Origin: Alphaproteobacteria bacterium
GTDB taxonomy: Bacteria > Pseudomonadota > Alphaproteobacteria > JAUXUR01
Length of the DNA stretch: 64,000 nt
NCBI GenBank assembly: GCA_030696155.1
Contig: JAUYSY010000029.1
Location: 4,059 to 68,058, forward strand
Reading direction: 5' to 3'
The position numbers were made by a program, and so were the translations under genes. The number at the start of each line of letters is the position of its first letter. Position 1 is the first letter of the stretch. Shown here piece by piece: positions 370 through 59,080 of the stretch. The notes under the pieces were generated by a model. It was not told the DNA's origin. It did no database searches and saw only the letters and a program-made list of their open reading frames with translations.

Positions 370-2610
370 TTAAGCAGCGCGTGCTCTTGGTTTAAATGGT
401 TTGCGACCATCTTTATCAAAGGATTTTGCACCAGAACTTGGGGCAAAACTCTTCTTTTGAAAGTCTCTTTTAGGTTTATCAAAACCTGCTTTAGGTGCCG
501 CACCATCACGTGAAAAACCTGGTTTCGGACCGTCGAATTTAGGTCTTTCAGATCTAGGTCTATCTTCACGGGGCCTATCGTCTCTGGGGCCTTTTGGACC
601 ATCAAAAGCTGCGCGTTGGGCGCGTGGGCCTTCAAAACGTTTAGGCGCTGTTCCATCTCTGTCAAATTCACGACGTGGAGGTTTAGAGAAACCGCCTTCG
701 CGTGGTGTGTCTCTGGAGAAACCTTCGCGATTTCCTTCAAAACGTTGTTTAGGCGCTGATGGACGATCAAAATTATTTTCTTTGGCAAATTCACGACGTG
801 GTGGTTTGGAAAAACCGCCTTCGCGTGGTGTGTCTCTAGAAAATCCTTCACGATTACCTTCAAAGCGTTTTTTAGGCGCAGATGATGCATCTCTATCGAA
901 TTCACGACGTGGAGGTTTTGAAAAACCGCCTTCGCGTGGTGTGTCTCTAGAGAAACCTTCACGATTACCTTCAAAGCGTTGTTTAGGCGCTGATGAAGCA
1001 TCTCTGTCGAATTCACGACGTGGAGGTTTAGAAAAACCGCCTTCACGTGGTGTATCTCTCGAAAATCCTTCACGATTACCTTCAAAGCGTTTTTTAGGGG
1101 CTGAATCATCTCTGTCGAATTCACGACGTGGTGGTTTGGAAAAACCGCCTTCACGTGGCGTGTCTCTGGAGAATCCTTCACGATTACCTTCAAAGCGTTG
1201 CTTAGGTGCAGATGGTCTATCATTATCAAATTCACGACGTGGAGGTTTTGAAAAACCTTCTGTGCGTGGTTTATCTGGCGAATAATGGTCGCGCGGTGCA
1301 CCTTCAAAGCGTTGCTTAGGTGCTGATGGACGGTCATTATCGAATTCACGACGTGGTTTTGAAAAACCACCTTTACCGGCGCCTTCAGATTTAAATCCAC
1401 CAAAAGGTTTTTTAGGATAGAAAGGATCTTGTTTATCAAAATCACGACGACGATTTTGACCAAAAGATTTTGAATTTTTATTAGTTGATGATTTAGATCC
1501 ACCATTTCTTGGTGTTTCAATTTTTTGATCTGGATTCATTAAACGTTGAATTTCGCCCCATTTTTTTGTTTGTTGCGGTGTGATCAAGCATAATGAAAAA
1601 CCAGTTGCACCAGCACGTGCAGTACGGCCAATACGATGGATGTAATCTTCAGGACATTGCGGCAAATCATAATTGATAACATGCTGAATATGTGGAATAT
1701 CAAGTCCACGCGCTGCAACATCGGTTGCAACAAGAATTTGCGTGCGACCAATACGGAAGCCATGAATAACGCTTTCACGTTTTTTTTGTCTTAGATCACC
1801 ATGAATCGCTGAAACGCGATATTTTTCTTTGTACAAATTATTCGCCAAGCGATCAGCACCAATTTTCGTTTTAACGAAAATAATAACAGAACCTTCACGT
1901 TCACTTAATTGTGACAATAATTGTGGATATTTTTCTTCTTCAGAAACTTTAAGAATATCTTGCTTAATGGCAGCAGCAGGTTTGAAATTTGATCCAACAG
2001 AAACGCGTTTTGGATCTTTAAGATATTTCGCCGCTAATTTTTCAATGGTGACAGGAAAAGTCGCTGAAAACATCATTGTTTGACGATTTTTGGATAAATG
2101 CGGAATAATTTGATCTAATTGAATACCAAATCCCATGTCAAGCATACGATCTGTTTCATCTAAAACTAAGAAATGTACATTCTTTGTTTTGAATGTGCCA
2201 CGTTCTATATGATCGATCACGCGACCAGGTGTGCCCACAATAAGACGCGGATTCGCATTAAGCTGTTGCATTTGGCCTGGATAAGGATCACCACCAATTA
2301 ATAATGCTGTTTTAAGATCGCCACGTATGGCTAAAAGCTGTCTAATGGCCGTATGAACCTGCTGTGCGAGTTCACGTGTTGGCGTTAGAATTAAAGCGGA
2401 TTCATATGGATTTGCCATCAATTTGGCAATTAAAGGAATACCAAAAGCAAGTGTTTTGCCGGTACCTGTTTGCGCAGAACCCATAACGTCATGATCATTC
2501 ATGGCTAAAGGAATTGCTTCCAATTGTATAGGCGTGGGTGCTGTAAAGCCTAATTTATCAATATATTGAAGGAGTTCTTCTGGGAGACCCATCTGGTGAA
2601 AAGCGTTCAT
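370..2610 (-). CDS. rhlE: ATP-dependent DEAD-box RNA helicase (RhlE/DeaD-like) with long C-terminal Arg/Gly/Asp-rich tandem-repeat tail
   Basis: N-terminal core has helicase motifs AQTGTGKT, PTRELA, DEAD (VLDETDRMLDMGF), SAT, HRIGRTARAG. Start chosen at ATG 2610 (MNAFHQMGLPEEL) rather than the upstream ORF-track start. C-terminal ~280 aa are 40-aa repeats PREGGFSKPPRREFDRDxSAPKQRFEGNREGFSRDT. Confidence 0.85.
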   Translation of the reverse strand: MNAFHQMGLPEELLQYIDKLGFTAPTPIQLEAIPLAMNDHDVMGSAQTGTGKTLAFGIPLIAKLMANPYESALILTPTRELAQQVHTAIRQLLAIRGDLKTALLIGGDPYPGQMQQLNANPRLIVGTPGRVIDHIERGTFKTKNVHFLVLDETDRMLDMGFGIQLDQIIPHLSKNRQTMMFSATFPVTIEKLAAKYLKDPKRVSVGSNFKPAAAIKQDILKVSEEEKYPQLLSQLSEREGSVIIFVKTKIGADRLANNLYKEKYRVSAIHGDLRQKKRESVIHGFRIGRTQILVATDVAARGLDIPHIQHVINYDLPQCPEDYIHRIGRTARAGATGFSLCLITPQQTKKWGEIQRLMNPDQKIETPRNGGSKSSTNKNSKSFGQNRRRDFDKQDPFYPKKPFGGFKSEGAGKGGFSKPRREFDNDRPSAPKQRFEGAPRDHYSPDKPRTEGFSKPPRREFDNDRPSAPKQRFEGNREGFSRDTPREGGFSKPPRREFDRDDSAPKKRFEGNREGFSRDTPREGGFSKPPRREFDRDASSAPKQRFEGNREGFSRDTPREGGFSKPPRREFDRDASSAPKKRFEGNREGFSRDTPREGGFSKPPRREFAKENNFDRPSAPKQRFEGNREGFSRDTPREGGFSKPPRREFDRDGTAPKRFEGPRAQRAAFDGPKGPRDDRPREDRPRSERPKFDGPKPGFSRDGAAPKAGFDKPKRDFQKKSFAPSSGAKSFDKDGRKPFKPRARAA
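520..1350. repeat. Intragenic tandem DNA repeat (~120-bp unit, about 7 copies) encoding the helicase C-terminal tail
   Basis: Near-identical 120-123-nt units are visible directly (ttcacgacgtggaggttt...ccttcaaagcgtt...). They generate long spurious ORFs in the other frames (357..1520 minus, 707..1285 plus). Confidence 0.8.
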
Positions 2611-3296
2611 TGTTGACCTATCTATATTATTGTCAATTGTTTTCTCTTTCAATCGACTACATATCATATAGGATGGAAGAGATTTTTGATGGTATATCTT
2701 TATATATACCTATTATGCAAATTGTCAGGATTATCAGATTTTGGCATTGCACTATTATTGTGTCTTTGAAACAAAGAGTATCTGTTTAGCCAATTATTTT
2801 CCTACCTACATTTTGAAATAAGAACGGGATAATTTAGAAAATATAAAATTTTAGTTTTTTCTAAAAAGGATTCGCTTATTTAAGTTGGACTGTATATCTT
2901 TTTTGCTTAAAAAGCAAGATAAGAATTTAATCTATATAAAATTAGTAATGTTGAAATCAATATTAAATGCTATTGGCATTTGGGTTTAATAAAATATCAA
3001 TGGCATCTAATATTACAAATTTTTATAGCGCGTAAAACCTTAAAAAACAATCCAGAGAAATAGCTCTTATAAAGGTCTATATATACGATTTATTTATCGC
3101 ATTACAGTAAATTTCGTTGTTGAGTTCTGAACTCACAACGAAACACATGATCCAGAGAGCATGCGTCTAAAGTTATTTAACCTATAAAACCTATGAAAGT
3201 CAGCATTTCCATGATATCTTTAACATGTTTTTATTGTAACAAAGTCAAATCGTATTAATTGCTTTGTTTACATTCATTTGTGTCTATAAAAACTCA

Positions 3297-3579
3297 ATCT
3301 ACGGGACAATTTTTATTTTCATGCTAAAAACTTGCCCACACACCTTTGTTTTCCTGAACGCGTTGAAGCGAAGCTTCATACGTAGATTCAGGATCCAAAA
3401 CGCAATTCATGCTCGAAAGAGCATGGCAAAATTATTTAAATAACGTCATGATCTACGATCATGATTATTACGTGGACCCTGAATCGGCATTCGAGCCCTT
3501 TGGGCTCTCATTGGTTCAGGGAAACAGGAAGGTTGTTTGTAGCCTTCGAGATAAAAATTTATTTTTTGTCCCGTAGATT
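3297..3579 (+). repeat. Family-A structured MITE-like element, copy 1 (terminal inverted repeats atctacgggacaatttttatttt / aaaataaaaaatgtcccgtagatt, multi-hairpin core)
   Basis: Homologous to 46834..47111 and, as reverse complement, to 49930..50115. Contains hairpins catgctc-GAAA-gagcatg, catgatc-TACG-gatcatg, gagccc-ttt-gggctc, gaagc-gaa-gcttc and cctgaa...ttcagg. Confidence 0.7.
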
Positions 3580-3615
3580 AATAAAAACTAAACAAATAGT
3601 TTCGAAAGAGGTCTG

Positions 3616-3810
3616 ATGCTTAAATTTTTAATTATTTCAGCCATTATTATTTTTATAGTATATAAGATTAGACGTTATATGATCCATTTGCTATTTCCAC
3701 AACTTAAAGGCGAAAATGCAAAAATATCAGATCTAACTTATTGTAGATCATGCAAAAGCTTTCATTTGGAAGGTGACCAGCATTGTAAAAAACCAAAAAA
3801 AGATTCTTAA
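3616..3810 (+). CDS. Small hypothetical membrane protein (one TM helix plus Cys/His-containing tail), upstream of htpX
   Basis: 64-aa ORF with hydrophobic N-terminus LIISAIIIFIVY and a CRSCKSF...HC motif. Sits 130 bp upstream of htpX on the same strand. No recognisable family. Confidence 0.3.
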   Translation: MLKFLIISAIIIFIVYKIRRYMIHLLFPQLKGENAKISDLTYCRSCKSFHLEGDQHCKKPKKDS

Positions 3811-3943
3811 TACTATAGATACAAAAGCATCATTGTTTTTAACAGTTTTAATAATAAACGCAACCAAACCCTTTAAAATTTCTATTTTTAAGATATATTA
3901 GTAGGGGTATGCAAGATTTTAAATAAGACCTTAAAGGAAAAAA

Positions 3944-4792
3944 ATGGCACGCACTTTTCTACTCCTAGCAGGACTTACGGCTCTTTTTGTAGGTATAGGC
4001 TTTTTAATTGGTGGCACAAGCGGCATGATAATTGCGCTTGTTATTGCTTTAGCGATGAATTTCTTTTCTTATTGGTATTCCGATAAACTTATTTTAAATA
4101 TGTATAATGCGAAAGCTGTAACGCCTCAAGAATCGCCAGAATTATATAGCATGATTAAAGAACTCGTCATGCGCGCGCAATTACCTATGCCTAAGCTTTA
4201 CCTCATTCACGAAGATCAGCCCAATGCATTTGCAACGGGCAGAAATCCAGAAAATGCTGCCATTGCTGTTACAACCGGTTTATTAAATGCTTTAAGACCT
4301 GACGAGGTTAAAGGTGTCATTGCTCATGAACTCGCGCATGTCAAAAATAGAGATACGCTTATCATGACAATTACTGCAGGTATTGCAGGCGCCATTTCAA
4401 TGTTAGGCCATTTGGCACTTTTTACATCACATAGCAATGATAGCAATAACAAAACAAATATATTTGGTACAATTCTTATCGTTATTTTGGGTCCTATTGC
4501 TGCTATGCTCGTTCAAATGGCGATTTCCAGATCACGTGAATATGAGGCTGATCGATTAGGTGCACTTATTTGTGGACATCCTTTGTGGCTTGCAAGTGCG
4601 CTTGAAAAAATGCAAAACGCGGCACAGCATATTGAAAGCCCCAAGGCAGAAAATAATCCTGCAACAGCACATATGTTTATCATCAATCCTTTAAGCGGAC
4701 ATTTAATGGATAATTTATTTTCAACACACCCAAACACCCTTAATCGCATTATGCGTCTTAAAAAAATGGCAGGATCTAACCCATGGTCGTAA
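3944..4792 (+). CDS. htpX: Zinc metalloprotease HtpX (M48 family)
   Basis: [10 protein letters not shown] zinc-binding motif, four TM segments, C-terminal [13 protein letters not shown] aaaggaaaaaaATG. Confidence 0.9.
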
Positions 4793-9172: not shown

Positions 9173-9736
9173 TTATTTGTTCTTTTTATTATTATCTTTC
9201 CATCCTGGCAACATCCTTCTTAAGATATTATCTTTCAAAATAAAGTGATGGTAAAGACCGCCCACAATATGAAAAGCCGTAAAACCAATAATCACCCAGA
9301 TCATATATTCGTGTACTTTATTTGCAAATTTTGAAATTGCAGGATTTTTCATGATTGGATCTATTGTGAATAAATCAAAAATTTTAATAGGATGACCCCC
9401 AAGCGTTGACATCAAATATCCACTTATAGGAATAATCAGCATCGAAAGATAAAGTGCCCAAATCACACCTTGCGCCGATTTCTTTTGCCAATTAGGCATT
9501 GGTGGATCTTTAGGCACAACATTTAAAAAACGCCAAAAAAGTCGTAGCACTATAATCAATAATGCCAACATACCTAATGCTTTATGTAGATCAAATAATT
9601 TCCATTTTTCATCGCCATCTGGAAAGTCACCCATCACAAAACCAAGCGTAATTTGGCCGATCAAAAAAGCAAAAATAAACCAGTGTAAAAATTGTGTAAC
9701 GATACCCCAACTTTGATCGCTATTTCGTAAATTCAT
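9173..9736 (-). CDS. Cytochrome b561 family protein
   Basis: Four-TM haem-binding protein with conserved His (HWFIFAFL...H). Start moved to ATG 9736, which has a GGAGG RBS. The upstream part of the ORF-track call runs into the family-C repeat. Confidence 0.7.
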   Translation of the reverse strand: MNLRNSDQSWGIVTQFLHWFIFAFLIGQITLGFVMGDFPDGDEKWKLFDLHKALGMLALLIIVLRLFWRFLNVVPKDPPMPNWQKKSAQGVIWALYLSMLIIPISGYLMSTLGGHPIKIFDLFTIDPIMKNPAISKFANKVHEYMIWVIIGFTAFHIVGGLYHHFILKDNILRRMLPGWKDNNKKNK

Positions 9737-9751
9737 AATTCCTCCGTTTTT

Positions 9752-9947
9752 TATAATTATTGGTAACTCCCCAGCCCCCCTGCTACGCCCCGCTCCAAAA
9801 CCCGCAGTGTCCATGCCAAAAAAGTAAAATGATAAATATATATCGTTACTTTTCAACAGGTTTTATGGATCTCGCGGTCAAGCCGCGGGACGTAGGGGGT
9901 GAGATGTTCAAATTTTGTATCTCCCCTCCTGGGGAATTACAATTATT
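9752..9947. repeat. Family-C GC-rich palindromic MITE-like element, copy 1
   Basis: Arms ccccagcccccctgctacgccccgc ... gcggtcaagccgcgggacgtagggggtgag, with a conserved right end gatgttcaaatt. Related copies at 28150, 36450, 53355 and 57489. Confidence 0.7.
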
Positions 9948-9979
9948 GAGAATTTGCCCATAAGATTGGCGTTAACCTA

Positions 9980-10648
9980 TTAAAAGTCTAAATTGACATA
10001 ATGTCGAGAGGGTAATATGCCCGGTACGACTTCATGCAATAAAGGCCTAAAACTAGGACGTGATTTTATTTTAGCATACCAATCCTTGGCTTCTGGGTGT
10101 TTATCCCAGGAAATATCTCCTAGATAATCAATTGACGAAAGATGAGAGGCTGCACAAATATCAGCCAAAGAAAAACGATCCCCTGCAAGCCAATTGCGTC
10201 TTTCAACCAAATATGAAATATAGGCTAGATGGTTATTCAAGTTAATGGCACCGGCACGTAAAGCGCTCGATGAAGGTGCGCCACGTCCATAATAAGCCTT
10301 AAAAGTTTTCTCTTCCAGCAGATTAACACTTACCTCATGATAAAATTTTTGATTGAACCAACCAACAAGACGTCTTACTTCTGCGCGTGTAATAGGATCC
10401 CGACCTAAAAGAGGTCGATCAGGATAGACTTCGTCTAAATATTCACAAATGGGGTTTACTTCAGCTATAACATCGCCTTCTGATTCTACCAAAACAGGTA
10501 AATCGCCTGTGGGGTTTAAATTAATAAATTCGGCACGTCTTTCCCAAGGCTTTTCTAAGATAAGATCAAAGCTTAATGATTTTTCAGAAAGACATAATCT
10601 CACTTGGCGAGAGGCCGGTGATAGCCAATAATGATAAAGTTTACGCAT
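9980..10648 (-). CDS. Glutathione S-transferase family protein
   Basis: N-terminal thioredoxin-like fold (KLYHYWLSPASRQVRL) and C-terminal GST helical domain. ATG 10648 has RBS aaagga; the ORF track begins at a TTG 18 nt upstream. Confidence 0.7.
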   Translation of the reverse strand: MRKLYHYWLSPASRQVRLCLSEKSLSFDLILEKPWERRAEFINLNPTGDLPVLVESEGDVIAEVNPICEYLDEVYPDRPLLGRDPITRAEVRRLVGWFNQKFYHEVSVNLLEEKTFKAYYGRGAPSSSALRAGAINLNNHLAYISYLVERRNWLAGDRFSLADICAASHLSSIDYLGDISWDKHPEAKDWYAKIKSRPSFRPLLHEVVPGILPSRHYVNLDF

Positions 10649-10873
10649 TTTTCCTTTTTCGTTCAAATTAGGATTTTCGTTATTACAATTTTACGGTAGA
10701 CTTCTTTTGAATCTTTTTTAAGATCGATAAAAACATAAGGCATGCTATGTCATTAATATTAAATCATTCTATCAAATCAATGCATTTAATAAAAGAATCA
10801 TTAACGTTTTTGTGTAGAAAATATGCAATGAGCCTTAAAATTGTGCTGAATCCTATTTTTGTGAGTTCTATAA

Positions 10874-11083
10874 ATGACTGATATTAATCCTAAATTGCTT
10901 GAAATTCTCGTTTGCCCTCAAACAAAAGGTAGACTTGTTTATAATAAAGAACAACAAGAGCTTATTTCCCCTTTGGCTGAATGTGCTTATCCTATTAAAG
11001 ATGGCATTCCTATTATGCTTATTGATGAAGCAAGACATTTAACAGAAGATGAAATCTTAAAATATAAAAAGAAAACAAGTTAA
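10874..11083 (+). CDS. Trm112/YcaR family protein (UPF0434)
   Basis: [14 protein letters not shown] ... DGIPIML is the canonical Trm112 zinc-ribbon-like motif. Confidence 0.7.
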
Positions 11084-11153
11084 AAGAAACTTGTTGTTAA
11101 AAATGCCATTACATGTTAAAAAAAATACAAATTAACCTAAGTTAGAGTATATT

Positions 11154-11420
11154 ATGAACAAATTTTCTTTACTTTTTTGCGTTTCTTTATTTTTATCAGG
11201 CTGCTTTCATTACGAACCACAAATGTTTGGTGTTCCTCAAAGCATTTGGGTAACACTCAGCGAAGCGGAACGCGTCCATGTCATTGATGGCTACAATAGG
11301 AAAAAAGAGCTTGAAGAAGCTAACCGTCCAGCACGAGAAGCACTAGCAGCCACACAAAAATTATTAGAAAATCAAATGACGATTAATAACAATAACATGA
11401 ACAAAAAACATAAATATTGA
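11154..11420 (+). CDS. Small lipoprotein, hypothetical, with Asn-rich C-terminus
   Basis: Lipobox LFLSGC after a signal peptide. No family recognised. Confidence 0.45.
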   Translation: MNKFSLLFCVSLFLSGCFHYEPQMFGVPQSIWVTLSEAERVHVIDGYNRKKELEEANRPAREALAATQKLLENQMTINNNNMNKKHKY

Positions 11421-11523
11421 TCCTTATGTATTCCGTTTAAAAGGTTTTTTTCTGGATTGCCACGGGGCTTCTTTTAAGTTTGAGCCCCTCGCAATGACGA
11501 GTCACTTTTGCTTTTTCAAAAAA

Positions 11524-12813
11524 TTATCGAAAAATGGATTTTTCCATACGTATTATTTGTCCTACAAAATATAAAGAACCTGTAAACACTATCTTTGCGT
11601 TACGATCTAAATTATTATTAAGATTTTCTAAAAATGCATCCAAATCTTGAATTTCTTTAATTTTTATACCCATTTTAGAAGAAATATTAATTAACGCAGC
11701 AGAAGAAATAAAATCATCTGACGGATTTTGATAGGCATATAAATTAAAATTTTTATGTTTGAAAGACTCTAAAAACAAAACAGGATCTTTTGTTTTAGAA
11801 AGACAAAGAACAATGTGTAGATCGCATTCTTTTGACCATTCATCTAAAGTCTTCAATAAAACTTGAGCGCCACCTTGATTATGAGCGCCATCTACCCAAA
11901 TCTCTGCATCTGATTTTAAGGATGAAATCTGTTGAAGTCTTCCTGGCCATTGCGTATTTTTAATAGCATCGACAATTATATCTTGTTGAATGTCATAGCT
12001 TTTTTCTTTAAGAACAATACTCGCCATAATAGCCAAGGAAGCATTGGCTAATTGGTGTTGACCCCGTAATCCTAAAGTCGGAATGATTATTTCCAAATTA
12101 TTCGATTGAAAACTAAAGCCTTTGTCAATTTGTTTGAAACTATAATCACGATCAAAAATTTTTCCTTCTAATGCATTATCGATCATATAATTTTGATAAA
12201 AATCAAGAATCTCTGGTGTGTTTTGACCAATTAAATTAACAGAAGATTTTTTTAAAATGCCTGCCTTTTGAAAGGCAATTTCTTTCAATGTCTTGCCTAA
12301 TATATCTTGATGATCATATGAAATAGATGTAATTAAACTTAATATTGGATTTTCGATGATATTGGTTGCATCATGAAGACCTCCAAGACCTGTTTCGATG
12401 AGACAAAAATCAGCTTTTGTTTGACTGAAACTTAAGAATGCAACACAAGTGAGCAATTCAAACCAAGTAAGTGAAATATTAGAAGCAGCTTTTTCACATA
12501 ATTGAATAAAATCAACTAAATAATTATCGTCAATTTCTTGATTAGCAAGAACGAAACGTTCATTTAATTTGACAAGATGCGGTGATGTGAAAACATGAAC
12601 CTTAAAACCATGTGCTTTCAATATGGTATAAAGAAAAGCGATCGTTGAACCTTTTCCATTTGTGCCCGCCACATGAATCAATGGTGGTAATTTTAAATGT
12701 GGATTACCAAGATTGTGTAAAACAGAAAATAGTCGATCAAAAGTTAAATCTAAAAATCGTGGATAGGCAAAAACTTTATCTTCTAAAGTAGAACAAACCG
12801 AATTATGATGCAT
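11524..12813 (-). CDS. folC: Bifunctional folylpolyglutamate synthase / dihydrofolate synthase
   Basis: P-loop VAGTNGKGST, Mur-ligase-like middle and C-terminal domains. Confidence 0.85.
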   Translation of the reverse strand: MHHNSVCSTLEDKVFAYPRFLDLTFDRLFSVLHNLGNPHLKLPPLIHVAGTNGKGSTIAFLYTILKAHGFKVHVFTSPHLVKLNERFVLANQEIDDNYLVDFIQLCEKAASNISLTWFELLTCVAFLSFSQTKADFCLIETGLGGLHDATNIIENPILSLITSISYDHQDILGKTLKEIAFQKAGILKKSSVNLIGQNTPEILDFYQNYMIDNALEGKIFDRDYSFKQIDKGFSFQSNNLEIIIPTLGLRGQHQLANASLAIMASIVLKEKSYDIQQDIIVDAIKNTQWPGRLQQISSLKSDAEIWVDGAHNQGGAQVLLKTLDEWSKECDLHIVLCLSKTKDPVLFLESFKHKNFNLYAYQNPSDDFISSAALINISSKMGIKIKEIQDLDAFLENLNNNLDRNAKIVFTGSLYFVGQIIRMEKSIFR

Positions 12814-15512: not shown

Positions 15513-15548
15513 ATCTTTTTCGAAATCTACTACTGTCATTTTGGTATT

Positions 15549-15691
15549 AGGCTTCTTTCAAAACTCGCTAATGTGGGACGAGTGATAGAAGATTCGGCAC
15601 GGAAGACCACAGTGTATTCTTCATACATGAGGATCTGAGTACCGAAACGACGCATCAATCGACCGCAGTAGTAGAGTTTTGAAAAAAGTCT
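15549..15691. repeat. Family-B palindromic intergenic repeat, copy 1
   Basis: Imperfect palindrome (ctactactg...cagtagtag). Core gtgtattcttcatacatgaggatctgagtaccgaaacgacgc. Ends in gagttttgaaaaaagtcta, as does the copy at 58888..59029. Confidence 0.65.
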
Positions 15692-15693
15692 AT

Positions 15694-16863
15694 TCAAGTT
15701 TCTTTAAACAATTCACGTCCAATAAGCATACGTCTTATTTCAGATGTGCCTGCGCCTATTTCATATAATTTAGCGTCACGTAAAAGTCTACCTACTGGAT
15801 ATTCATTGATATAGCCATTACCACCTAAACATTGAATCGCTTCTAAGGCCATCCATGTTGCTTTTTCAGCAGAATATAAAATTGCACCCGCTGCATCTTT
15901 GCGTGTTACTTCACCACGATCACAAGCCTTTGCCACCATATAAACATATGATTTACAAGCCATATAGGTTGTATACATATCCGCAAGTTTGCCTTGCATG
16001 ATTTGGAACTCACCAATCGCTTTCCCAAATTGTTTACGTTCATGCACATAAGGCAAAACGATATCGAGTGCTGCCTGCATAATGCCTAATGGACCACCTG
16101 AAAGGACTAAACGTTCGTAATCGAGACCACTCATCAAGACTTGAACGCCTGCATTAAGCCCGCCCAAAATGTTTTCTTCAGGAATTTCACAATTATCAAA
16201 AACAAGCTCACATGTATCAGAACCACGCATACCCAATTTGTCTAATTTTTGTGCTGTACTAAAGCCTTTCATGCCTTTTTCAACGATAAAAGCCGTAATA
16301 CCTTTCGTACCACCTTGTGGATCAGTTTTGGCGTAAACAACCAAGACATCAGCTTGTGGACCATTGGTAATCCACATTTTTGTGCCATTTAAAATATAGC
16401 GATCACCTTTTTTATCGGCTTTCAAACGCATGGATACAACATCAGACCCAGACCCTGCTTCCGACATCGCAAGCGCACCCAAATATTCACCCGATACTAA
16501 TTTTGGTAAATATTTCATTTTTTGTGCTTTATTGCCATTTATATGGATTTGATTCACACATAAATTGGAATGCGCACCATAACTTAATCCAATGGAAGCA
16601 GAGGCACGTGAAATTTCTTCCATCGCAATAACATGTTCGGTATACCCCATCTGGGCACCGCCATATTCCTCACCCACCGTGACACCAAGCACCCCTAAAT
16701 CACCTAATTTTGGCCATAAATGCCGGGGAAATTCATTATTATGATCAATTTCTTGCGCAATAGGCGCTATTTCTTTTTGCGCAAAGCTTTTAACAGAATC
16801 GCGTAATAAAGTTGCTGTTTCACCGAGATCAAAATTTAAAAATGGGGAGCGATTTGGAATCAT
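15694..16863 (-). CDS. ivd: Isovaleryl-CoA dehydrogenase
   Basis: Acyl-CoA dehydrogenase fold with the IVD-type active-site region ([20 protein letters not shown]). Confidence 0.85.
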
Positions 16864-53354: not shown

Positions 53355-53486
53355 AACCCCCCATTTTCCTACTCCCCGCGGCTTGACCGCTGGGTCCATA
53401 AAACCTGTTGAGAAGTATCGATAAATTTATTAATCTAACTTCTTCACAATGGATCCCGCGGTCAAGCCACGGGAAGTAGGAGATTG
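53355..53486. repeat. Family-C MITE-like element, copy 4
   Basis: cctactccccgcggcttgaccgctgggtcc ... ggatcccgcggtcaagccacgggaagtaggag. Confidence 0.7.
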
Positions 53487-53943: not shown

Positions 53944-54162
53944 TCTTTAGGGTTCCTCTATAAAATTATTATCGTCAGCATAATGCCATGAAATGTTTTA
54001 GGATTTCAACATATACTCTTCCTTTTTCAAACTGTGGAGGTCGTCAGATTTCGGGATTCAACATGCTCATGTATAAAGAGATACATTCCGCGTGTTTCAC
54101 CGCTCATCTTCCTACCCACATTTTGAAACCGATCGAGTATATAAGGATAAGGATTTGGAATT

Positions 54163-54936: not shown

Positions 54937-57465
54937 ATGAAAAAATTTTTTTTTCCTCTAGTATATCTTTCTTTGTGTGGCCCGTTAGTTTCTGCATCAC
55001 CTTTAGAAAATAAAATTACAAAAAACTTTAACAACAACATATCAGGTTATCAAGAACATTTTGATAATGTAAGCAATTATGTAAATAATGAACTTTTTTC
55101 AACTACATCTAAATGGCATACCAATGAAATTAAAGAATATATCAACTTATTAAGCCAAATGAATGAAGAAGAATTTGAAACCCTAAAACTAAATATCCTA
55201 TATTTTGCTACGTCTTGTTGCTGTATGCATTCTTTTTCTTACACTAAATTTAAAAAAATAACTTTCTTGCTTCATACTAAACCAGAAGAATTCGATGATC
55301 TTCTTGAGTACAAAAATCAACATGATATATCGACCTCAGACTTTCTTCCTCTATTTTACGAAAAAATGGAAGACAATAAAGCTTCTGATCAATTGCTACT
55401 TACCGACCTTAAAACAAATAATGAGCAAACTTCCGATCAATTATCGCTTACTAACCATAAAGTTAATAATGAAAACCATTCTGATCAATTACCACTTACC
55501 GACCACAAAGTTAATAATGAAAAATTTTTTGATGATTTATGCAAACAAATTACTGCATCTCAAACAAAGGAAATAGTTCGTTGTACATTTCAAAAAGAAC
55601 CTTTCAATAAAAAATCAAGAAAGACAATTCATACATTGTTGTTAAATTTTATTAAATCAAGAGACTTTATAGAACTTGATGATTTTGATTTATCAAAATT
55701 TAAAGCATTATTCGGCCCTAACGAACAATATCGAAATTCTCCTAATTGTTGTCAATATGTTATAAATGCTATGCGTAATACGCATAAATTGTTTAATCAA
55801 CAACCAATATTGTTGTCTATCTATCAAGATATCTTAGAATTGTTTTTTAAATTACAAAATAACTCTAATGAAGTTTTTGCGTTTTTATCAAACACCCATT
55901 TAAAAGGAAACCTTTGTGTTAGTTTAAGTAATATAGAAACACAAATAAACACGATGATTAATGCTGAAAAATTAAAAAACATTGAATCGTGGGAACCTGT
56001 TTTTAGAAAAATAAATGTATACAATTTAGATCAACAACTGTTTAACGAATTATTCGAATTTATTTACGCTCATTCAACCCCCTCACAACACCTTATTGCT
56101 TATTTAGAGTTAATAAATAAAAATACATCAACAAAAATTACCAATAATTTTTTGGTAAAAACCATTATAAAATGCGATGAAAATCAATTAAGAAATGCAC
56201 ATCATCAATTAAAAAATATATGCAGCTCAACAAATTTAGATTTTAATTCTCATCAATTAATAGCTGCTTATATTTTATTAGCGCAAGATTCTTTTGAGAT
56301 TGCTCAACAATTAGAAACATATCTATTAAACAACCCTCAGCAACTTATCGAAGCGATGAAAGACATACACAAGTCTTTTCAAAAAAATGGTGCATCAGTC
56401 ATTTGCTATAAAAACGCTTTAAAGCTATTGATAAAAACAGAAAAACCAACTGATATTTCTTTGTTTTTAACATGCACCAATTACAATAAAGCATCTATTT
56501 CTTTTGATGATTTAGAAAACCTTATTGAAAAAAATATTAACACTAGAGATTTAAAAAACATTCAATCGTGGAAACAAGTTTTTCAACTTTTAGATATGTA
56601 TTGTTTACCTGAAAATTTATTTAATAATTTTTTAGACTTTGCGTCTTTATATTCAGAACCTCCACGTTCGCTTGTTTATTATTTAAAACTTATATGCCGC
56701 GGAACAAAAAATAAAATCACGAACATTTCTCTTGTCAAAACTATCATGAAAGTCAATCAATACGGAGAAGCAAGTGCCAAATTAAAAGATATTTTGTATT
56801 TATTAAAAGATATAAGTCTATATGAAAATTCAGGTATAATAAAATATTTTGGTTTTTTAAATCAATACGAAGAAAATATGTATTATAAAGCGCATTCTAA
56901 GTTAACTGATCTTTATTCAAGCGCATTGATTCCTAACGAGATTAAAGAGAATTTACTTAGATACATTCATATTTCAATTGAATATGGACGAAACGATTCA
57001 GAACTATGTTGTCTTGGAGCATTACGTGCACAGCATCTCTACAAAACCATTGAACCATATGATTTATTAAAAGAACATGCTTCTGTTACTCAAAAACGAT
57101 TACATGACAATGCAATATATAATATAAAAAACTTGAGAAATATTATCTATGATTTATCTTTTTCTTCACTTCAATCAATTGCAAATACTATTTTGTTGGC
57201 ACAAGAATCTCCAGAACTTCAAAAACGATTAAATTATACAATCGAAAAATTGCCTTTCTATTCATTAATGAATGAAAATAAGGTTAAAGTCAATCTACGT
57301 CAACATTTAAATTTTGTTTTTCAAAACAAAATACCTGAACCAAGAAAAAAATATAAGTTTAAATTAAAAAAATATTTAAACTTTATTTTAAATATGACAG
57401 AAGAGACGTTTAATTTGTTAATCGTTGACAACAATAAAGATTTTAACGATTTTAGAAATCATTAA
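54937..57465 (+). CDS. Large secreted Asn/Lys-rich hypothetical protein with internal duplications
   Basis: Signal peptide MKKFFFPLVYLSLCGPLVSA (RBS aaagga). Three tandem 16-aa units SDQLxLT(D/N)(L/H)K(T/V)NNE. Two ~105-aa paralogous segments (…NIESWEPVFRKINVYNLDQQLFNELFEF… / …NIQSWKQVFQLLDMYCLPENLFNNFLDF…). Confidence 0.55.
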   Translation: MKKFFFPLVYLSLCGPLVSASPLENKITKNFNNNISGYQEHFDNVSNYVNNELFSTTSKWHTNEIKEYINLLSQMNEEEFETLKLNILYFATSCCCMHSFSYTKFKKITFLLHTKPEEFDDLLEYKNQHDISTSDFLPLFYEKMEDNKASDQLLLTDLKTNNEQTSDQLSLTNHKVNNENHSDQLPLTDHKVNNEKFFDDLCKQITASQTKEIVRCTFQKEPFNKKSRKTIHTLLLNFIKSRDFIELDDFDLSKFKALFGPNEQYRNSPNCCQYVINAMRNTHKLFNQQPILLSIYQDILELFFKLQNNSNEVFAFLSNTHLKGNLCVSLSNIETQINTMINAEKLKNIESWEPVFRKINVYNLDQQLFNELFEFIYAHSTPSQHLIAYLELINKNTSTKITNNFLVKTIIKCDENQLRNAHHQLKNICSSTNLDFNSHQLIAAYILLAQDSFEIAQQLETYLLNNPQQLIEAMKDIHKSFQKNGASVICYKNALKLLIKTEKPTDISLFLTCTNYNKASISFDDLENLIEKNINTRDLKNIQSWKQVFQLLDMYCLPENLFNNFLDFASLYSEPPRSLVYYLKLICRGTKNKITNISLVKTIMKVNQYGEASAKLKDILYLLKDISLYENSGIIKYFGFLNQYEENMYYKAHSKLTDLYSSALIPNEIKENLLRYIHISIEYGRNDSELCCLGALRAQHLYKTIEPYDLLKEHASVTQKRLHDNAIYNIKNLRNIIYDLSFSSLQSIANTILLAQESPELQKRLNYTIEKLPFYSLMNENKVKVNLRQHLNFVFQNKIPEPRKKYKFKLKKYLNFILNMTEETFNLLIVDNNKDFNDFRNH

Positions 57466-58378: not shown

Positions 58379-58885
58379 GTGATTAAGACATTAGCTCATT
58401 TTTTTAGTTTTTGTCTAATTTTTAGTATGGCTCAAAATACGTATCTTTACGCAAAACTTCCTCTCAATTCAGGTCTTCCCATTCCGCGATTTGCAGCTTT
58501 AAGATCAGCAGACGTTAATTTAAGAACTGGTCCTGGAACACGTTATCCCATTTCTTGGGTTATTAAAAAAAAATTTCTTCCTGTTAAAGTAATTGCCGAA
58601 CAAGAAAATTGGCGTAAAATTGAACTTCATGATGGTACGATTGGCTGGGTTTTTCAATCAATGCTCACAGGCAACAAAACGGCTATGATTAATATTTCTA
58701 AGGCCTTTTTAAGACGTGCGCCTCAAGCTAGTTCTTCTATCATTGTAACAATTGGTGATGGTATCATTGGTCAATTAAAATTGTGCAAAGGAAATTGGTG
58801 CAGATTAACGCTGAGTAATCATAAAAATCATACAGGGTGGATTGAGCGTGAGCATCTTTGGGGAGCAGAATTTGATAAAAAATAA
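58379..58885 (+). CDS. Secreted bacterial SH3-domain (SH3b) protein
   Basis: Signal peptide, then VNLRTGPGTRYPISWVI...GTIGWVFQSML and a second SH3-like unit. GTG start with AAGGA RBS. Confidence 0.6.
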   Translation: MIKTLAHFFSFCLIFSMAQNTYLYAKLPLNSGLPIPRFAALRSADVNLRTGPGTRYPISWVIKKKFLPVKVIAEQENWRKIELHDGTIGWVFQSMLTGNKTAMINISKAFLRRAPQASSSIIVTIGDGIIGQLKLCKGNWCRLTLSNHKNHTGWIEREHLWGAEFDKK

Positions 58886-58887
58886 AT

Positions 58888-59029
58888 AGACTTCTTCCTA
58901 AACTCTACTGCTGCGGCCAATTGATGTGTCGGTTCGGTACTCAGATCCTCAAGTATAAAAGATACATTCCAGTCTTCCGTGCCGAAACTCCTATCACTTG
59001 TCTCACAGCAGCGAGTTTTGAAAAAAGTC
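58888..59029. repeat. Family-B palindromic intergenic repeat, copy 2
   Basis: tagacttcttcctaaactctactgctgcgg ... cagcagcgagttttgaaaaaagtcta. The core is the reverse-orientation homologue of 15549..15691. Confidence 0.65.
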
Positions 59030-59080
59030 TAATATTTTTGGGTATGTTTCTTGGTTTGTTTAAGGTTTTAGAATAATATA

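What the first reader, a model, noticed from the sequence alone, without database searches (positions are those of the whole stretch)
3297..3579. Family-A ~280-bp structured element: three copies whose hairpin loops vary but stay as stable tetraloops
Copies at 3297..3579, 46834..47111 and, reverse-oriented, 49930..50115 share 20-bp terminal inverted repeats (atctacgggacaatttttatttt). The core has nested stems cctgaa…ttcagg and four local hairpins. Between copies the stems are conserved while the loops change among GAAA/TAA/GTAA in the first hairpin and TACG/TGCG/TTCG in the second, which are GNRA- or UNCG-type loops in most copies. That pattern looks like selection on RNA (or single-stranded DNA) secondary structure, not only on transposition. 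All copies are intergenic and sit next to 3' ends of genes: before htpX, between thiolase and prmA, and after pepP. They could act as transcribed structured RNAs or terminators, or be a MITE family with an RNA-level function.
Basis: seen in the sequence. Interest (0 to 1): 0.65.

Follow-up and report, generated by a model that had tools for sequence, protein, structure and literature searches.

The report
Structured jumping DNA repeat (MITE)
This is a family of ~285-bp non-coding "jumping" DNA repeats (a MITE) in an uncultured alphaproteobacterium; it is a new family of a well-known kind, unusual mainly in that its folded multi-hairpin core is kept intact while the rest of the element drifts.

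Summary
The three copies are real. Refined coordinates are c1 3295-3580 (+), c2 46830-47112 (+) and c3 49882-~50141 (-, left end lost). A decayed fourth copy lies at ~3085-3195.

- The termini are 15-bp inverted repeats, CAATCTACGGGACAA...TTGTCCCGTAGATTG.
- Target-site duplications are 9 bp (c1) and 8 bp (c2).
- A related metagenome contig has the c2 site empty, with a single copy of the target.
- There is no conserved ORF and no Rfam match.
- Independent assemblies break inside the element, as expected for a repeat.

The 181-nt core folds into two long-range helices and four hairpins (z about -9 to -10). Stems are far more conserved than unpaired bases (c1 vs c2: 2.6% vs 24% divergence). Five base pairs of the long-range helices are doubly compensated in c3. 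So structure is maintained.

Both strands fold equally well, one copy has decayed, and a sister strain has lost 119 bp of the c3 core. RNA-level host function is therefore unproven. "UNCG tetraloops" is a misreading: those loops are 3-nt. "Next to 3' ends" holds only for c3. c1 and c2 sit 36 and 30 nt upstream of start codons. They must therefore be co-transcribed or carry outward promoters.

The parts
3295..3580 (+). Copy c1, full length (286 bp), termini CAATC...GATTA (GATTG in sister strains)
3286..3294 (.). Left target-site duplication of c1, ATAAAAACT
   Evidence: Read directly. The same 9-mer recurs at 3581-3589.
3581..3589 (.). Right target-site duplication of c1, ATAAAAACT
3295..3309 (+). 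Left 15-bp terminal inverted repeat of c1, CAATCTACGGGACAA
3566..3580 (-). Right 15-bp terminal inverted repeat of c1
3346..3526 (+). 181-nt structured core of c1. P1 is 3347-3359 paired with 3514-3526. Hairpin 1 is 3360-3383. P3 is 3385-3397 paired with 3473-3485. Hairpin 2 is 3408-3425, hairpin 3 is 3446-3464 and hairpin 4 is 3493-3507.
3085..3195 (+). Decayed relic of a fourth copy (hairpin 1 to hairpin 2 region), stems broken
   Evidence: E 0.034; L010 orthologue, E 6e-7
46830..47112 (+). Copy c2, full length (283 bp). It was inserted 30 nt upstream of the thiolase GTG start (46799, minus strand) and 108 nt upstream of prmA.
46822..46829 (.). Left target-site duplication of c2, ATGCATTT
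   Evidence: the empty site in L008 has a single ATGAATTT
47113..47120 (.). Right target-site duplication of c2, ATGCATTT
46881..47059 (+). Structured core of c2
49882..50141 (-). Copy c3 (~260 bp), an older and diverged subfamily. Its left terminus is missing. It starts right after the TGA stop (50142-50144) of the 433-aa ORF and ends 9 nt from the stop of the M24 peptidase gene.
49935..50115 (-). Structured core of c3, carrying the compensated stems CCUGGA/UCCAGG and GGGCCC

Best explanation

Inferred mechanism of movement: a transposase encoded elsewhere in the genome binds the 15-bp termini (CAATCTACGGGACAA) and inserts the element with staggered cuts. This duplicates 8-9 bp of A/T-rich intergenic target. 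The transposase is of the cut-and-paste DDE type, judged from the inverted termini plus the duplication. It was not found.

Shown: insertion happened at the thiolase-prmA site after the split from a relative that still has the empty site.

Structure: between the arms lies a 181-nt core. It folds into two long-range helices (P1, P3) and four short hairpins. This fold is kept by purifying selection in the lineage of source elements, while arms, linkers and loops drift.

Fate after insertion: copies behave as ordinary junk that can decay or lose the core.

Inferred consequence: c1 and c2 sit between the native promoters and start codons of neighbouring genes that remain under purifying selection. 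The element must therefore be read through as part of their 5' UTRs or supply an outward promoter. A compact self-contained fold is most likely what makes such insertions tolerable and/or transposition efficient.
For: MOBILITY
- Termini and duplications are read directly.
- Empty site: relative L008 (PrmA 87% identical) has 130 bp between thiolase and prmA, with one ATGAATTTCAAT. The window and strains L006 and L013 have 291 extra bp flanked by ATGCATTT.
- Multi-copy: there are 3 copies plus 1 relic in 64 kb. Short-read contigs L002, L011, L012 and L014 break inside the element. A further copy is seen in a more distant relative, L015, cut at the locus end.

NON-CODING, NOT A KNOWN RNA
- Reading frames are not shared between copies and there are no peptide homologues.
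- There is no Rfam family at gathering or E<=10 level, and no match in plasmids or phages.

DECAY AFTER INSERTION
- The relic at 3085-3195 has broken stems.
- Strain L013 has c3 with a 119-bp deletion between the two direct CCCTGGA repeats.

STRUCTURE MAINTAINED
- Folding z-scores are -9 to -10.
- c1 vs c2 divergence is 2.6% at paired sites, 24% at unpaired sites and 20-29% in the arms (p = 1e-5).
- 5 of 57 pairs are doubly compensated, all in P1 and P3. A rough Poisson expectation is 0.23 (p ~4e-6).

PROMOTER DISPLACEMENT
- The c2 left end is 19 nt from the thiolase GGGAG and 30 nt from its GTG (read).
- Thiolase differs between the window and L013 by 5.6% of nucleotides overall against 22% at 4-fold sites, which indicates purifying selection with the insertion in place.
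- Outward promoter-like hexamers occur at both c2 ends, but such matches are not above chance there.
Against: - No transposase and no full-length parent insertion sequence with these termini was found in the window (Pfam scans of 20 ORFs) or in the ~100 kb of related loci. The IS family is unassigned.
- Cut-and-paste transposases are not known to need internal hairpins, so the reason for the conserved core is inferred, not shown.
- In c3 the retained core differs at 1/51 sites between two strains while its arms differ at ~27/85. That looks like constraint acting after insertion, or gene conversion from other copies. A purely selfish-element model does not predict it.
- All compensatory changes come from one copy (c3), so they may be few events on one branch. 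In the shuffle control, 4 of 500 shuffles reach the observed value, and the tool's own caveat applies.
- Only 3-4 independent copies were available.
Confidence: 0.85

Rival explanations
1. The core is a functional structured RNA that the MITE merely carries: a portable cis-regulatory, stability or processing module, or a small RNA. Host-level selection on the RNA fold keeps stems intact at each locus.
For: - Stems are conserved and loops free, both between paralogues and, weakly, between strains at the same locus. There are 2 events in 263 paired sites against 7 in 158 unpaired core sites (p = 0.03).
- There is a U-A / U-G / C-G series at one P1 pair.
- The c3 core is 98% conserved between strains whose flanking arms are ~30% diverged.
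- The core sequence is almost identical in a distant relative (L015).
- c1 and c2 are necessarily in, or next to, transcribed 5' regions.
- MITE-derived sRNAs and RNase-processed MITE transcripts are documented (PMC10969869).
Against: - The minus strand folds as well as or better than the plus strand in 5 of 6 copies, so there is no G-U strand signature.
- Orientation and position relative to genes differ between copies (5' regions for c1 and c2, 3' ends for c3).
- A relic copy has been allowed to decay.
- L013 lost hairpins 1-3 and P3 of c3 without consequence for the neighbouring genes.
- The thiolase-prmA site works without the element in L008.
- There is no Rfam match.
- Conservation of c1 and c2 between strains is shared by their non-element flanks, so it is not element-specific.
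Confidence: 0.2
2. The structure matters only as DNA. The palindromes extrude as hairpins or cruciforms in single-stranded or supercoiled DNA. The apparent compensatory changes arise from intrastrand template switching (quasi-palindrome correction) or from short-tract conversion between the internal direct repeats, not from selection on RNA.
For: - Folding is equal on both strands, and the element matches its own reverse complement (E 1e-22).
- The four CCTGAA/TTCAGG segments all changed in the same way in c3 (A>G, T>C), as expected if repeats are corrected against each other.
- The L013 deletion runs exactly between the direct repeats CCCTGGA that flank the folded region. This is a classic hairpin-stimulated slippage product.
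- Hairpin loops are mutational hot spots. The middle base of the hairpin 4 loop is T, A and C in three ~99% identical c2 orthologues. Loops take 4 of 10 substitutions while making up 13 of 283 nt (p = 7e-4).
Against: - P1 and P3 arms are ~155 and ~76 nt apart, which is far for template-switch correction.
- The mechanism does not explain why unrelated local hairpins with perfect stems are retained over the divergence separating c3 and L015 from c1 and c2.
- It was not directly testable here.
Confidence: 0.25
3. It is a REP/REPIN-type element, mobilised as single-stranded hairpins by a RAYT (HUH/Y1) transposase, or an IS200/IS605-type palindrome-associated element.
For: - The termini contain CTAC...GTAG, reminiscent of GTAG-tagged REPs (title and abstract of PMC3733652, listed).
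- The element is hairpin-rich.
- The same window contains a separate REPIN-like family.
Against: - 8-9-bp target-site duplications and an empty site with a single target copy are not produced by HUH/Y1 transposases (established knowledge).
- The GTAG is part of a 15-bp terminal inverted repeat whose partner is 270 nt away, not the foot of a local 20-40-bp palindrome.
Confidence: 0.03
4. The repeats encode a small protein or a conserved protein domain.
For: ORFs of 55-61 aa overlap c1 and c2 and share the peptide NNVMI.DH.YY.DPESAFEPFGLSLVQ.
Against: - The frame is broken in c3.
- There is no homologue among 5.8 billion proteins.
- Gene callers did not call ORFs in the element in the four loci carrying a full-length copy (L006, L010, L013) or the internally deleted c3 (L014).
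- Variation follows base pairing, not codon position.
Confidence: 0.01

Closest known systems
QMITE2 / QMITE1 of Coxiella burnetii (as summarised in PMC10969869, Figure 2 and section 4.1)
   Same: - Non-coding and intergenic.
- Terminal inverted repeats and 7-9-bp direct repeats.
- A core between the arms, with the whole transcript predicted to fold into a very stable stem-loop (about -113 for QMITE2 in that review's figure legend, against -103 to -110 kcal/mol here).
- Promoter-like sequences and sRNAs have been reported for the Coxiella elements.
   Different: - No sequence relationship was tested or is apparent.
- The host is an uncultured alphaproteobacterium, not a gammaproteobacterium.
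- The strict TIR here is 15 bp, against 23-29 bp.
- The core here is longer (181 nt of structured core in a 283-286-bp element, against 113-145 bp) and is a multi-branch fold with four local hairpins.
Correia / NEMIS elements of Neisseria
   Same: - A small TIR-bounded repeat often inserted just upstream of genes.
- Co-transcribed, folds into a long hairpin, and can supply outward promoters and be cut by RNase III (PMC10969869).
- The c1 and c2 positions imply comparable co-transcription or promoter donation.
   Different: - Correia elements are 100-155 bp and duplicate TA (own knowledge). Family A is ~285 bp with 8-9-bp duplications, so a different transposase family is implied.
- No IHF site or RNase III processing was tested here.
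ERIC/IRU and pneumococcal BOX/RUP/SPRITE repeats
   Same: - Interspersed intergenic repeats whose transcripts form stable structures that can alter mRNA stability or termination (PMC10969869; title and abstract of PMC3049150, listed).
- They cluster and insert into or beside one another, as with the relic beside c1.
   Different: - There is no sequence similarity.
- BOX is modular and lacks TIR/TSD, and RUP duplicates TA (own knowledge).
- Family A has a single fixed architecture.
REP/REPIN elements with RAYT transposases
   Same: Hairpin-forming repeats in which compensatory stem changes are classically taken as evidence for selection on single-stranded structure. A GTAG motif lies near the ends.
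   Different: REPs have no terminal inverted repeats spanning the element and make no target-site duplication. Family A has both, so it is not a member.
Rickettsia palindromic elements (RPE)
   Same: Palindromic repeats proliferating in a low-GC alphaproteobacterial genome.
   Different: RPEs are ~100-150 bp, frequently inserted in frame within genes, and lack clear TIR/TSD (own knowledge). Family A copies are all intergenic, with TIR and TSD.

Membership tests
Prokaryotic MITE (criteria of PMC10969869, section 2.1) | Total length under ~500 bp | tested here: met
   286, 283 and ~260 bp
Prokaryotic MITE (criteria of PMC10969869, section 2.1) | Terminal inverted repeats of ~4-30 bp | tested here: met
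   15 bp, CAATCTACGGGACAA. It is 15/15 in L010 c1, 14/15 in the window c1 and 13/15 in c2. The c3 left end is lost.
Prokaryotic MITE (criteria of PMC10969869, section 2.1) | Flanking direct repeats from target duplication in young copies | tested here: met
   c1 has ATAAAAACT on both sides and c2 has ATGCATTT on both sides. The empty site in L008 has one copy. The c3 duplication is not recognisable.
Prokaryotic MITE (criteria of PMC10969869, section 2.1) | No transposase or coding capacity | tested here: met
   No conserved frame and no protein homologue.
Prokaryotic MITE (criteria of PMC10969869, section 2.1) | Multiple dispersed copies, inserted in A/T-rich intergenic DNA | tested here: met
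   3 copies plus a relic in 64 kb, and one in relative L015. Contigs break in the element. Targets are A/T-rich. The genome-wide copy number is unknown.
Prokaryotic MITE (criteria of PMC10969869, section 2.1) | Transcript predicted to form a stable stem-loop structure | tested here: met
   MFE -102 to -110 kcal/mol, z -9.2 to -10.2
Prokaryotic MITE (criteria of PMC10969869, section 2.1) | A cognate autonomous IS with matching termini that mobilises it in trans | not testable with these tools
   No transposase in the window ORFs scanned or in the called genes of related loci.
Correia/NEMIS or RUP (IS630/Tc1-like mobilisation) | TA target-site duplication | tested here: not met
   Duplications are 8-9 bp.
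REP/REPIN (RAYT-mobilised) | Local 20-40-bp palindrome with a GTAG/CGTC head, and no target-site duplication | tested here: not met
   Target duplication and an empty site are demonstrated. The GTAG lies within a long-range TIR.
Any curated RNA family (Rfam 15) | Covariance-model score at or above the gathering threshold | tested here: not met
   Only three tRNAs reach threshold in the window. The best hit in the element is SNORD96 at 22 bits against a threshold of 43.
Structured functional RNA (generic) | Statistically supported covariation across many independent sequences, and strand-specific expression | tested here: inconclusive
   5 compensated pairs, all from one copy; 4 of 500 shuffles reach the observed value. 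Local hairpins are invariant. Both strands fold equally well. Expression is not testable.
Intrinsic terminator | G+C-rich hairpin followed directly by a U-run, at the 3' end of a gene | tested here: inconclusive
   Hairpins 2 and 3 are flagged on both strands with weak T-rich tails. Only c3 lies at gene 3' ends; c1 and c2 lie upstream of start codons.

The most novel reading that the evidence does not exclude
The 181-nt core is a mobile, self-folding RNA module: two long-range helices, four hairpins, and possibly two alternative pairings of its four CCUGAA/UUCAGG segments. On this reading it is under purifying selection in its own right across an uncultured alphaproteobacterial lineage. It would spread on a MITE chassis and act as a portable UTR element that sets the stability, processing or read-through of whatever gene it lands beside. 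It would be a new class of transposon-borne cis-regulatory RNA rather than a mere by-product of palindromic DNA.
Probability: 0.12. Interest if true: 0.6.

Novelty: new member of a known kind. Interest (0 to 1): 0.3.

Why it matters
MITEs with stable predicted folds are common, so the existence of this family is not surprising.

Its value is as a clean case. It has a demonstrable empty site, intact duplications, an internally deleted copy and a decayed copy. It also has a core whose paired bases evolve about nine times slower than its unpaired bases, with compensated long-range pairs.

With the full genome, which probably holds tens of copies, it would allow a proper test of a still-unsettled question: whether bacterial MITE structure is selected as RNA, as DNA, or for transposition.

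Two copies sit between genes and their original promoters. This shows that the element rewires 5' regions of housekeeping genes (thiolase, and the ORF64/htpX region) in a poorly known, uncultured alphaproteobacterium.

Tried and rejected
SEARCHES THAT FOUND NOTHING USEFUL
- Exact-pattern scans with GCATTCGAGCCCTNTGGGCT in genome contigs and metagenome contigs, and with GCATTCGAGCCCNNNGGGCT in viral contigs.
- A search of 5.8 billion proteins with the spurious element-encoded peptides, meant to find other copies. Result: none.
- blastn (distant mode) against plasmids and phages: none.
- Literature search for the terminal sequence: none.
- Rfam at gathering and E<=10 thresholds: nothing credible.
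- A covariance model of the core (R1), searched over the window and 7 related loci. It found no further full copies. It returned only the known ones, the L015 fragment, the relic, and a weak hairpin hit.
- Look-ups of the 1614-aa, 765-aa and 604-aa window ORFs, meant to walk beyond the window. They failed because there was no exact product on record.
- TIR search in the window for a parent IS: only the four termini of c1 and c2.

READINGS REJECTED
- I first read GGATCTAGGTGACGATTTTTATTATAA (~50187-50161) as the c3 left TIR lying inside the 433-aa ORF (20/25 matches). I rejected this because the encoded C-terminal motif MDLGDDFYYNPNDFN is conserved in 45-55%-identical homologues. The resemblance is chance, and c3 is 5'-truncated.
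- The high between-strain conservation of c1 and c2 at first looked like constraint. It is shared by the adjacent non-element DNA, which forms low-divergence tracts, so it is not evidence about the element.
- I rejected the UNCG-tetraloop reading of hairpin 3.
Full report
OBSERVATION

The three stated loci were read and aligned. They are clearly homologous, with 81% mean column identity over ~300 columns. A profile built from them finds exactly these three in the 64-kb window, with E-values of 1e-104, 1e-102 and 2e-85. It also finds one weak hit just upstream of c1. Two core motifs of 19-20 specified bases occur three times each, against 0 expected in shuffles. Each copy folds far better than dinucleotide shuffles: -109, -103 and -102 kcal/mol, with z-scores of -9.2, -10.2 and -9.2. 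The repeat family and its strong secondary structure are therefore real.

BOUNDARIES AND TERMINI

Near-identical strains from other metagenomes refine the ends. In L010, L011 and L012 the right end of c1 reads GATTG where the window has GATTA. The termini are therefore a perfect 15-bp inverted repeat, CAATCTACGGGACAA...TTGTCCCGTAGATTG. The refined spans are:
- c1: 3295-3580, flanked on both sides by ATAAAAACT (3286-3294 and 3581-3589).
- c2: 46830-47112, flanked by ATGCATTT (46822-46829 and 47113-47120).
- c3 (minus strand): 49882 to about 50141.

The c3 right end is recognisable but diverged, and its left arm is short and lacks the terminus. I briefly took a 20/25 match inside the last codons of the adjacent 433-aa ORF for the missing terminus. 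The peptide it encodes (MDLGDDFYYNPNDFN) is conserved in homologues only 45-55% identical, so this resemblance is chance.

PROOF OF INSERTION

PrmA homologues led to contigs from related organisms. L008 has PrmA at 87% identity, and its thiolase-prmA spacer is 130 bp. It contains a single ATGAATTTCAAT. The window and strains L006 and L013 have 291 additional bases at exactly that point, bounded by the duplicated ATGCATTT. This is the classical filled-site versus empty-site picture of transposition with an 8-9-bp staggered cut.

Several independent short-read assemblies end inside the element: L002 at window 3550, L011 at 3559, L012 at 3470, and L014 inside c2. This is what happens at multi-copy repeats. 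A further copy begins at ~18440 of L015, a contig from a more distant relative. In that organism the homologue of the 433-aa protein is 55% identical and GC is 37%. The copy there carries the almost unchanged core start GTTTCCCTGAACACGTTGAAGCGAAGCTTCATACGTAGATT behind a different left arm that again starts CAATCT. The locus is cut there, so the rest could not be fetched.

WHAT IT IS NOT

- It is not coding. The 55-61-aa ORFs over c1 and c2 are frame-broken in c3. They have no homologue among 5.8 billion proteins.
- It matches no Rfam family, at either gathering or permissive thresholds.
- It matches nothing in the plasmid or phage collections.
- No transposase is present among the 20 window ORFs scanned or among the called genes of the related loci.
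- The organism is an uncultured low-GC (34.9%) alphaproteobacterium. NCBI names the identical protein 'MAG: Alphaproteobacteria bacterium'. The best named PrmA relatives are ~47% identical Rhodospirillales.

ANATOMY OF THE CORE

Between the A/T-rich arms lies a 181-nt core (c1 3346-3526). The consensus fold has these parts:
- P1: GUUUUCCUGAAC / GUUCAGGGAAAC.
- Hairpin 1: GCGUUGAAGC-GAA-GCUUCA(U)ACGC.
- P3: GAUUCAGGAUCCA / UGGAUCCUGAAUC, which encloses hairpins 2 and 3.
- Hairpin 2: CAUGCUC-GAAA-GAGCAUG.
- Hairpin 3: CAUGAUC-UAC-GAUCAUG.
- Hairpin 4: GAGCCC-UUU-GGGCUC.

Loop identities are as follows:

| Hairpin | Loops seen |
|---|---|
| 1 | GAA / AAA |
| 2 | GAAA, GUAA (GNRA) or UAA / GAA (triloops) |
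| 3 | UAC / UGC / UUC, closed by C-G (triloops, not UNCG) |
| 4 | UUU / UAU / UCU |

IS THE STRUCTURE MAINTAINED?

Divergence between paralogues, by class of site:

| Comparison | Paired core sites | Unpaired core sites | Arms |
|---|---|---|---|
| c1 vs c2 | 3/114 | 17/72 | 20-29% |
| c1 or c2 vs c3 | 11% | 34-38% | 40-76% |

For c1 versus c2, the paired-versus-unpaired difference gives Fisher p = 1e-5.

Most paired-site changes in c3 are compensated. Five pairs in P1 and P3 changed on both sides. They include CCUGAA/UUCAGG to CCUGGA/UCCAGG in both helices, GGAUCC to GGGCCC, and a U-A / U-G / C-G series. A rough expectation for random hits is 0.23 such pairs.

There are three caveats. All five compensations are in one copy. 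The shuffle control is reached in 4 of 500 trials. The four local hairpin stems never vary, which says nothing either way.

Among orthologous copies in different strains, paired sites took 2 substitutions in 263 sites, against 7 in 158 unpaired core sites (p = 0.03). Hairpin loops are hot spots. The central base of the hairpin 4 loop is T, A and C in three c2 orthologues that are ~99% identical. Loops take 4 of 10 substitutions while occupying 13 of 283 nt (p = 7e-4).

RNA OR DNA?

Plus and minus strands fold equally well (for example -110.6 vs -114.0 and -104.2 vs -112.0 kcal/mol). The element also aligns to its own reverse complement. There is therefore no strand signature of an RNA.

Individual copies are dispensable:
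- A fourth copy at ~3085-3195 has decayed stems and is 18% diverged between the window and L010.
- In strain L013, c3 has lost 119 bp (hairpins 1-3 and P3) by deletion between the two direct CCCTGGA repeats.
- The thiolase-prmA site is functional without the element in L008.

One observation points the other way. The part of the c3 core retained in L013 differs at 1/51 sites from the window copy, whereas the c3 arms differ at ~27/85 (p = 7e-6). Either the core is constrained after insertion or it is homogenised by conversion from other copies. I could not separate the two.

The high between-strain identity of c1 and c2 is not informative. Adjacent non-element DNA is equally conserved, while neighbouring genes are 7-22% diverged at 4-fold sites. 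These are mosaic, low-divergence tracts.

CONTEXT

Only c3 lies at gene 3' ends. It sits between the convergent M24 peptidase gene and the 433-aa ORF.
- c1 lies 36 nt upstream of the ATG of a conserved 64-aa ORF that precedes htpX.
- The c2 left end lies 19 nt from the thiolase Shine-Dalgarno GGGAG and 30 nt from its GTG start. Its right end is 108 nt from prmA.

Thiolase has stayed under purifying selection with the element in place: 5.6% nucleotide divergence against 22% at 4-fold sites. By inference, the element is either read through as a 5' leader or supplies an outward promoter. Promoter-like hexamers exist at both c2 ends (TTGGCA-16-TATATT at 47068-47095, and TAGACA-18-AAAAAT on the minus strand at 46873-46844). 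Such matches are no more frequent than in shuffles. Hairpins 2 and 3 are flagged as weak bidirectional terminator-like sites. This fits only c3.

INTERPRETATION

All testable defining features of a prokaryotic MITE, as listed in PMC10969869, are met. These are length under 500 bp, TIRs, flanking direct repeats, no coding capacity, dispersed intergenic A/T-rich insertion, and a stable predicted fold. The cognate transposase could not be sought genome-wide.

The 8-9-bp duplication excludes TA-duplicating families (Correia, RUP) and HUH-type REP/REPIN or IS200/605-type mobilisation. The closest described analogue in architecture is Coxiella QMITE2, which has 7-9-bp direct repeats, TIRs, a core, and a fold energy of about -113 in that review's figure legend. 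No homology is implied.

My best account, with confidence 0.85 for the MITE identity, is a trans-mobilised non-autonomous transposon. Its source lineage is under selection to keep a compact, self-contained fold, and its inserted copies then drift, decay or get deleted. Why the fold is kept is inferred only. The options are efficient transposition, harmless co-transcription in UTRs, or a genuine cis-acting RNA role. I put an RNA-level host function at about 0.2 and a purely DNA-level explanation of the compensations at about 0.25.

NOVELTY AND SCORE

This is a new family of a well-known kind. No sequence relative was found anywhere searched. It is a tidy example rather than a surprise, so interest is 0.3. 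The most novel reading not excluded is a transposon-borne portable structured RNA module conserved across a lineage (probability about 0.12).

Noticed in passing
window 9851-9898, 28238-28379, 36454-36572, 53358-53482; L008 ~9630-9660: A second repeat family. Its unit is a G+C-rich palindrome, TCCCGCGG-CTTGAC-CCGCGGGA, with an adjacent CGTAGG (a GTAG tag). It occurs singly and as inverted doublets 22-59 nt apart, which looks like a REP/REPIN family. The relative's contig L008 ends in such a unit just after pepP, where the window has c3.
   Followed up: partly
window 15545-15708 / 58871-59034; 24687-24817 / 54013-54143; 35093-35183 / 36254-36344 / 35287-35335: Further interspersed repeats of 90-165 nt share a core like GTGTATyCTTCATACATGAG. 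Strain L013 carries the 54006-54139 unit in the opposite orientation (L013 9128-9260). This genome is rich in several small repeat families.
   Followed up: no
window 49882-50141 vs L013 11273-11416: In a sister strain, c3 has a clean 119-bp deletion between the two direct CCCTGGA repeats that flank the folded centre. It leaves P1 plus hairpin 4. This looks like a hairpin-stimulated slippage product.
   Followed up: yes
window 50142-51443 (-): The 433-aa ORF has no Pfam domain and is only 76-77% identical between strains whose DNA is ~96% identical overall. The N-terminal half and a C-terminal motif, DFYYNPNDF, are conserved. It is a fast-evolving, possibly secreted protein.
   Followed up: partly
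window 649-1452 within ORF 370-2667 (-): The DEAD-box helicase has a C-terminal tail built from 111-nt (37-aa) tandem repeats, in 5-6 copies of 60-90% identity.
   Followed up: no
window 3010-4066 vs L010; 45000-49990 vs L013: Strain comparisons are mosaics. Tracts of ~1% divergence (3250-3810 and 46650-47250) abut tracts of 9-19% divergence. Four-fold-site divergence ranges from 7% to 22% between neighbouring genes. This suggests frequent recombination between lineages.
   Followed up: partly
L008 vs window 9173-12813 and 45621-46844: Gene order differs between relatives. In L008, cytochrome b561, GST, a Mur-ligase-like (FolC-type) gene and a WG-repeat gene lie directly beside thiolase. In the window those genes are ~33 kb away and an efflux operon abuts thiolase. 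L010 also diverges from the window upstream of ~3010, next to the relic copy.
   Followed up: no
L015 8641-8673; L016 3018-3049: Directly after the homologue of the 433-aa ORF, distant relatives have a hairpin, GGTTCTTTGGACC-AATAAA-GGTCCAAAGAACC. It resembles helix P1 of family A (weak covariance-model hit, E 0.0035). It may be an ordinary bidirectional terminator or a last remnant of an element.
   Followed up: no
window 32122-32313; 55383-55540: In-frame tandem repeats of 96 nt (2 copies) and 48 nt (3 copies) lie inside large ORFs.
   Followed up: no
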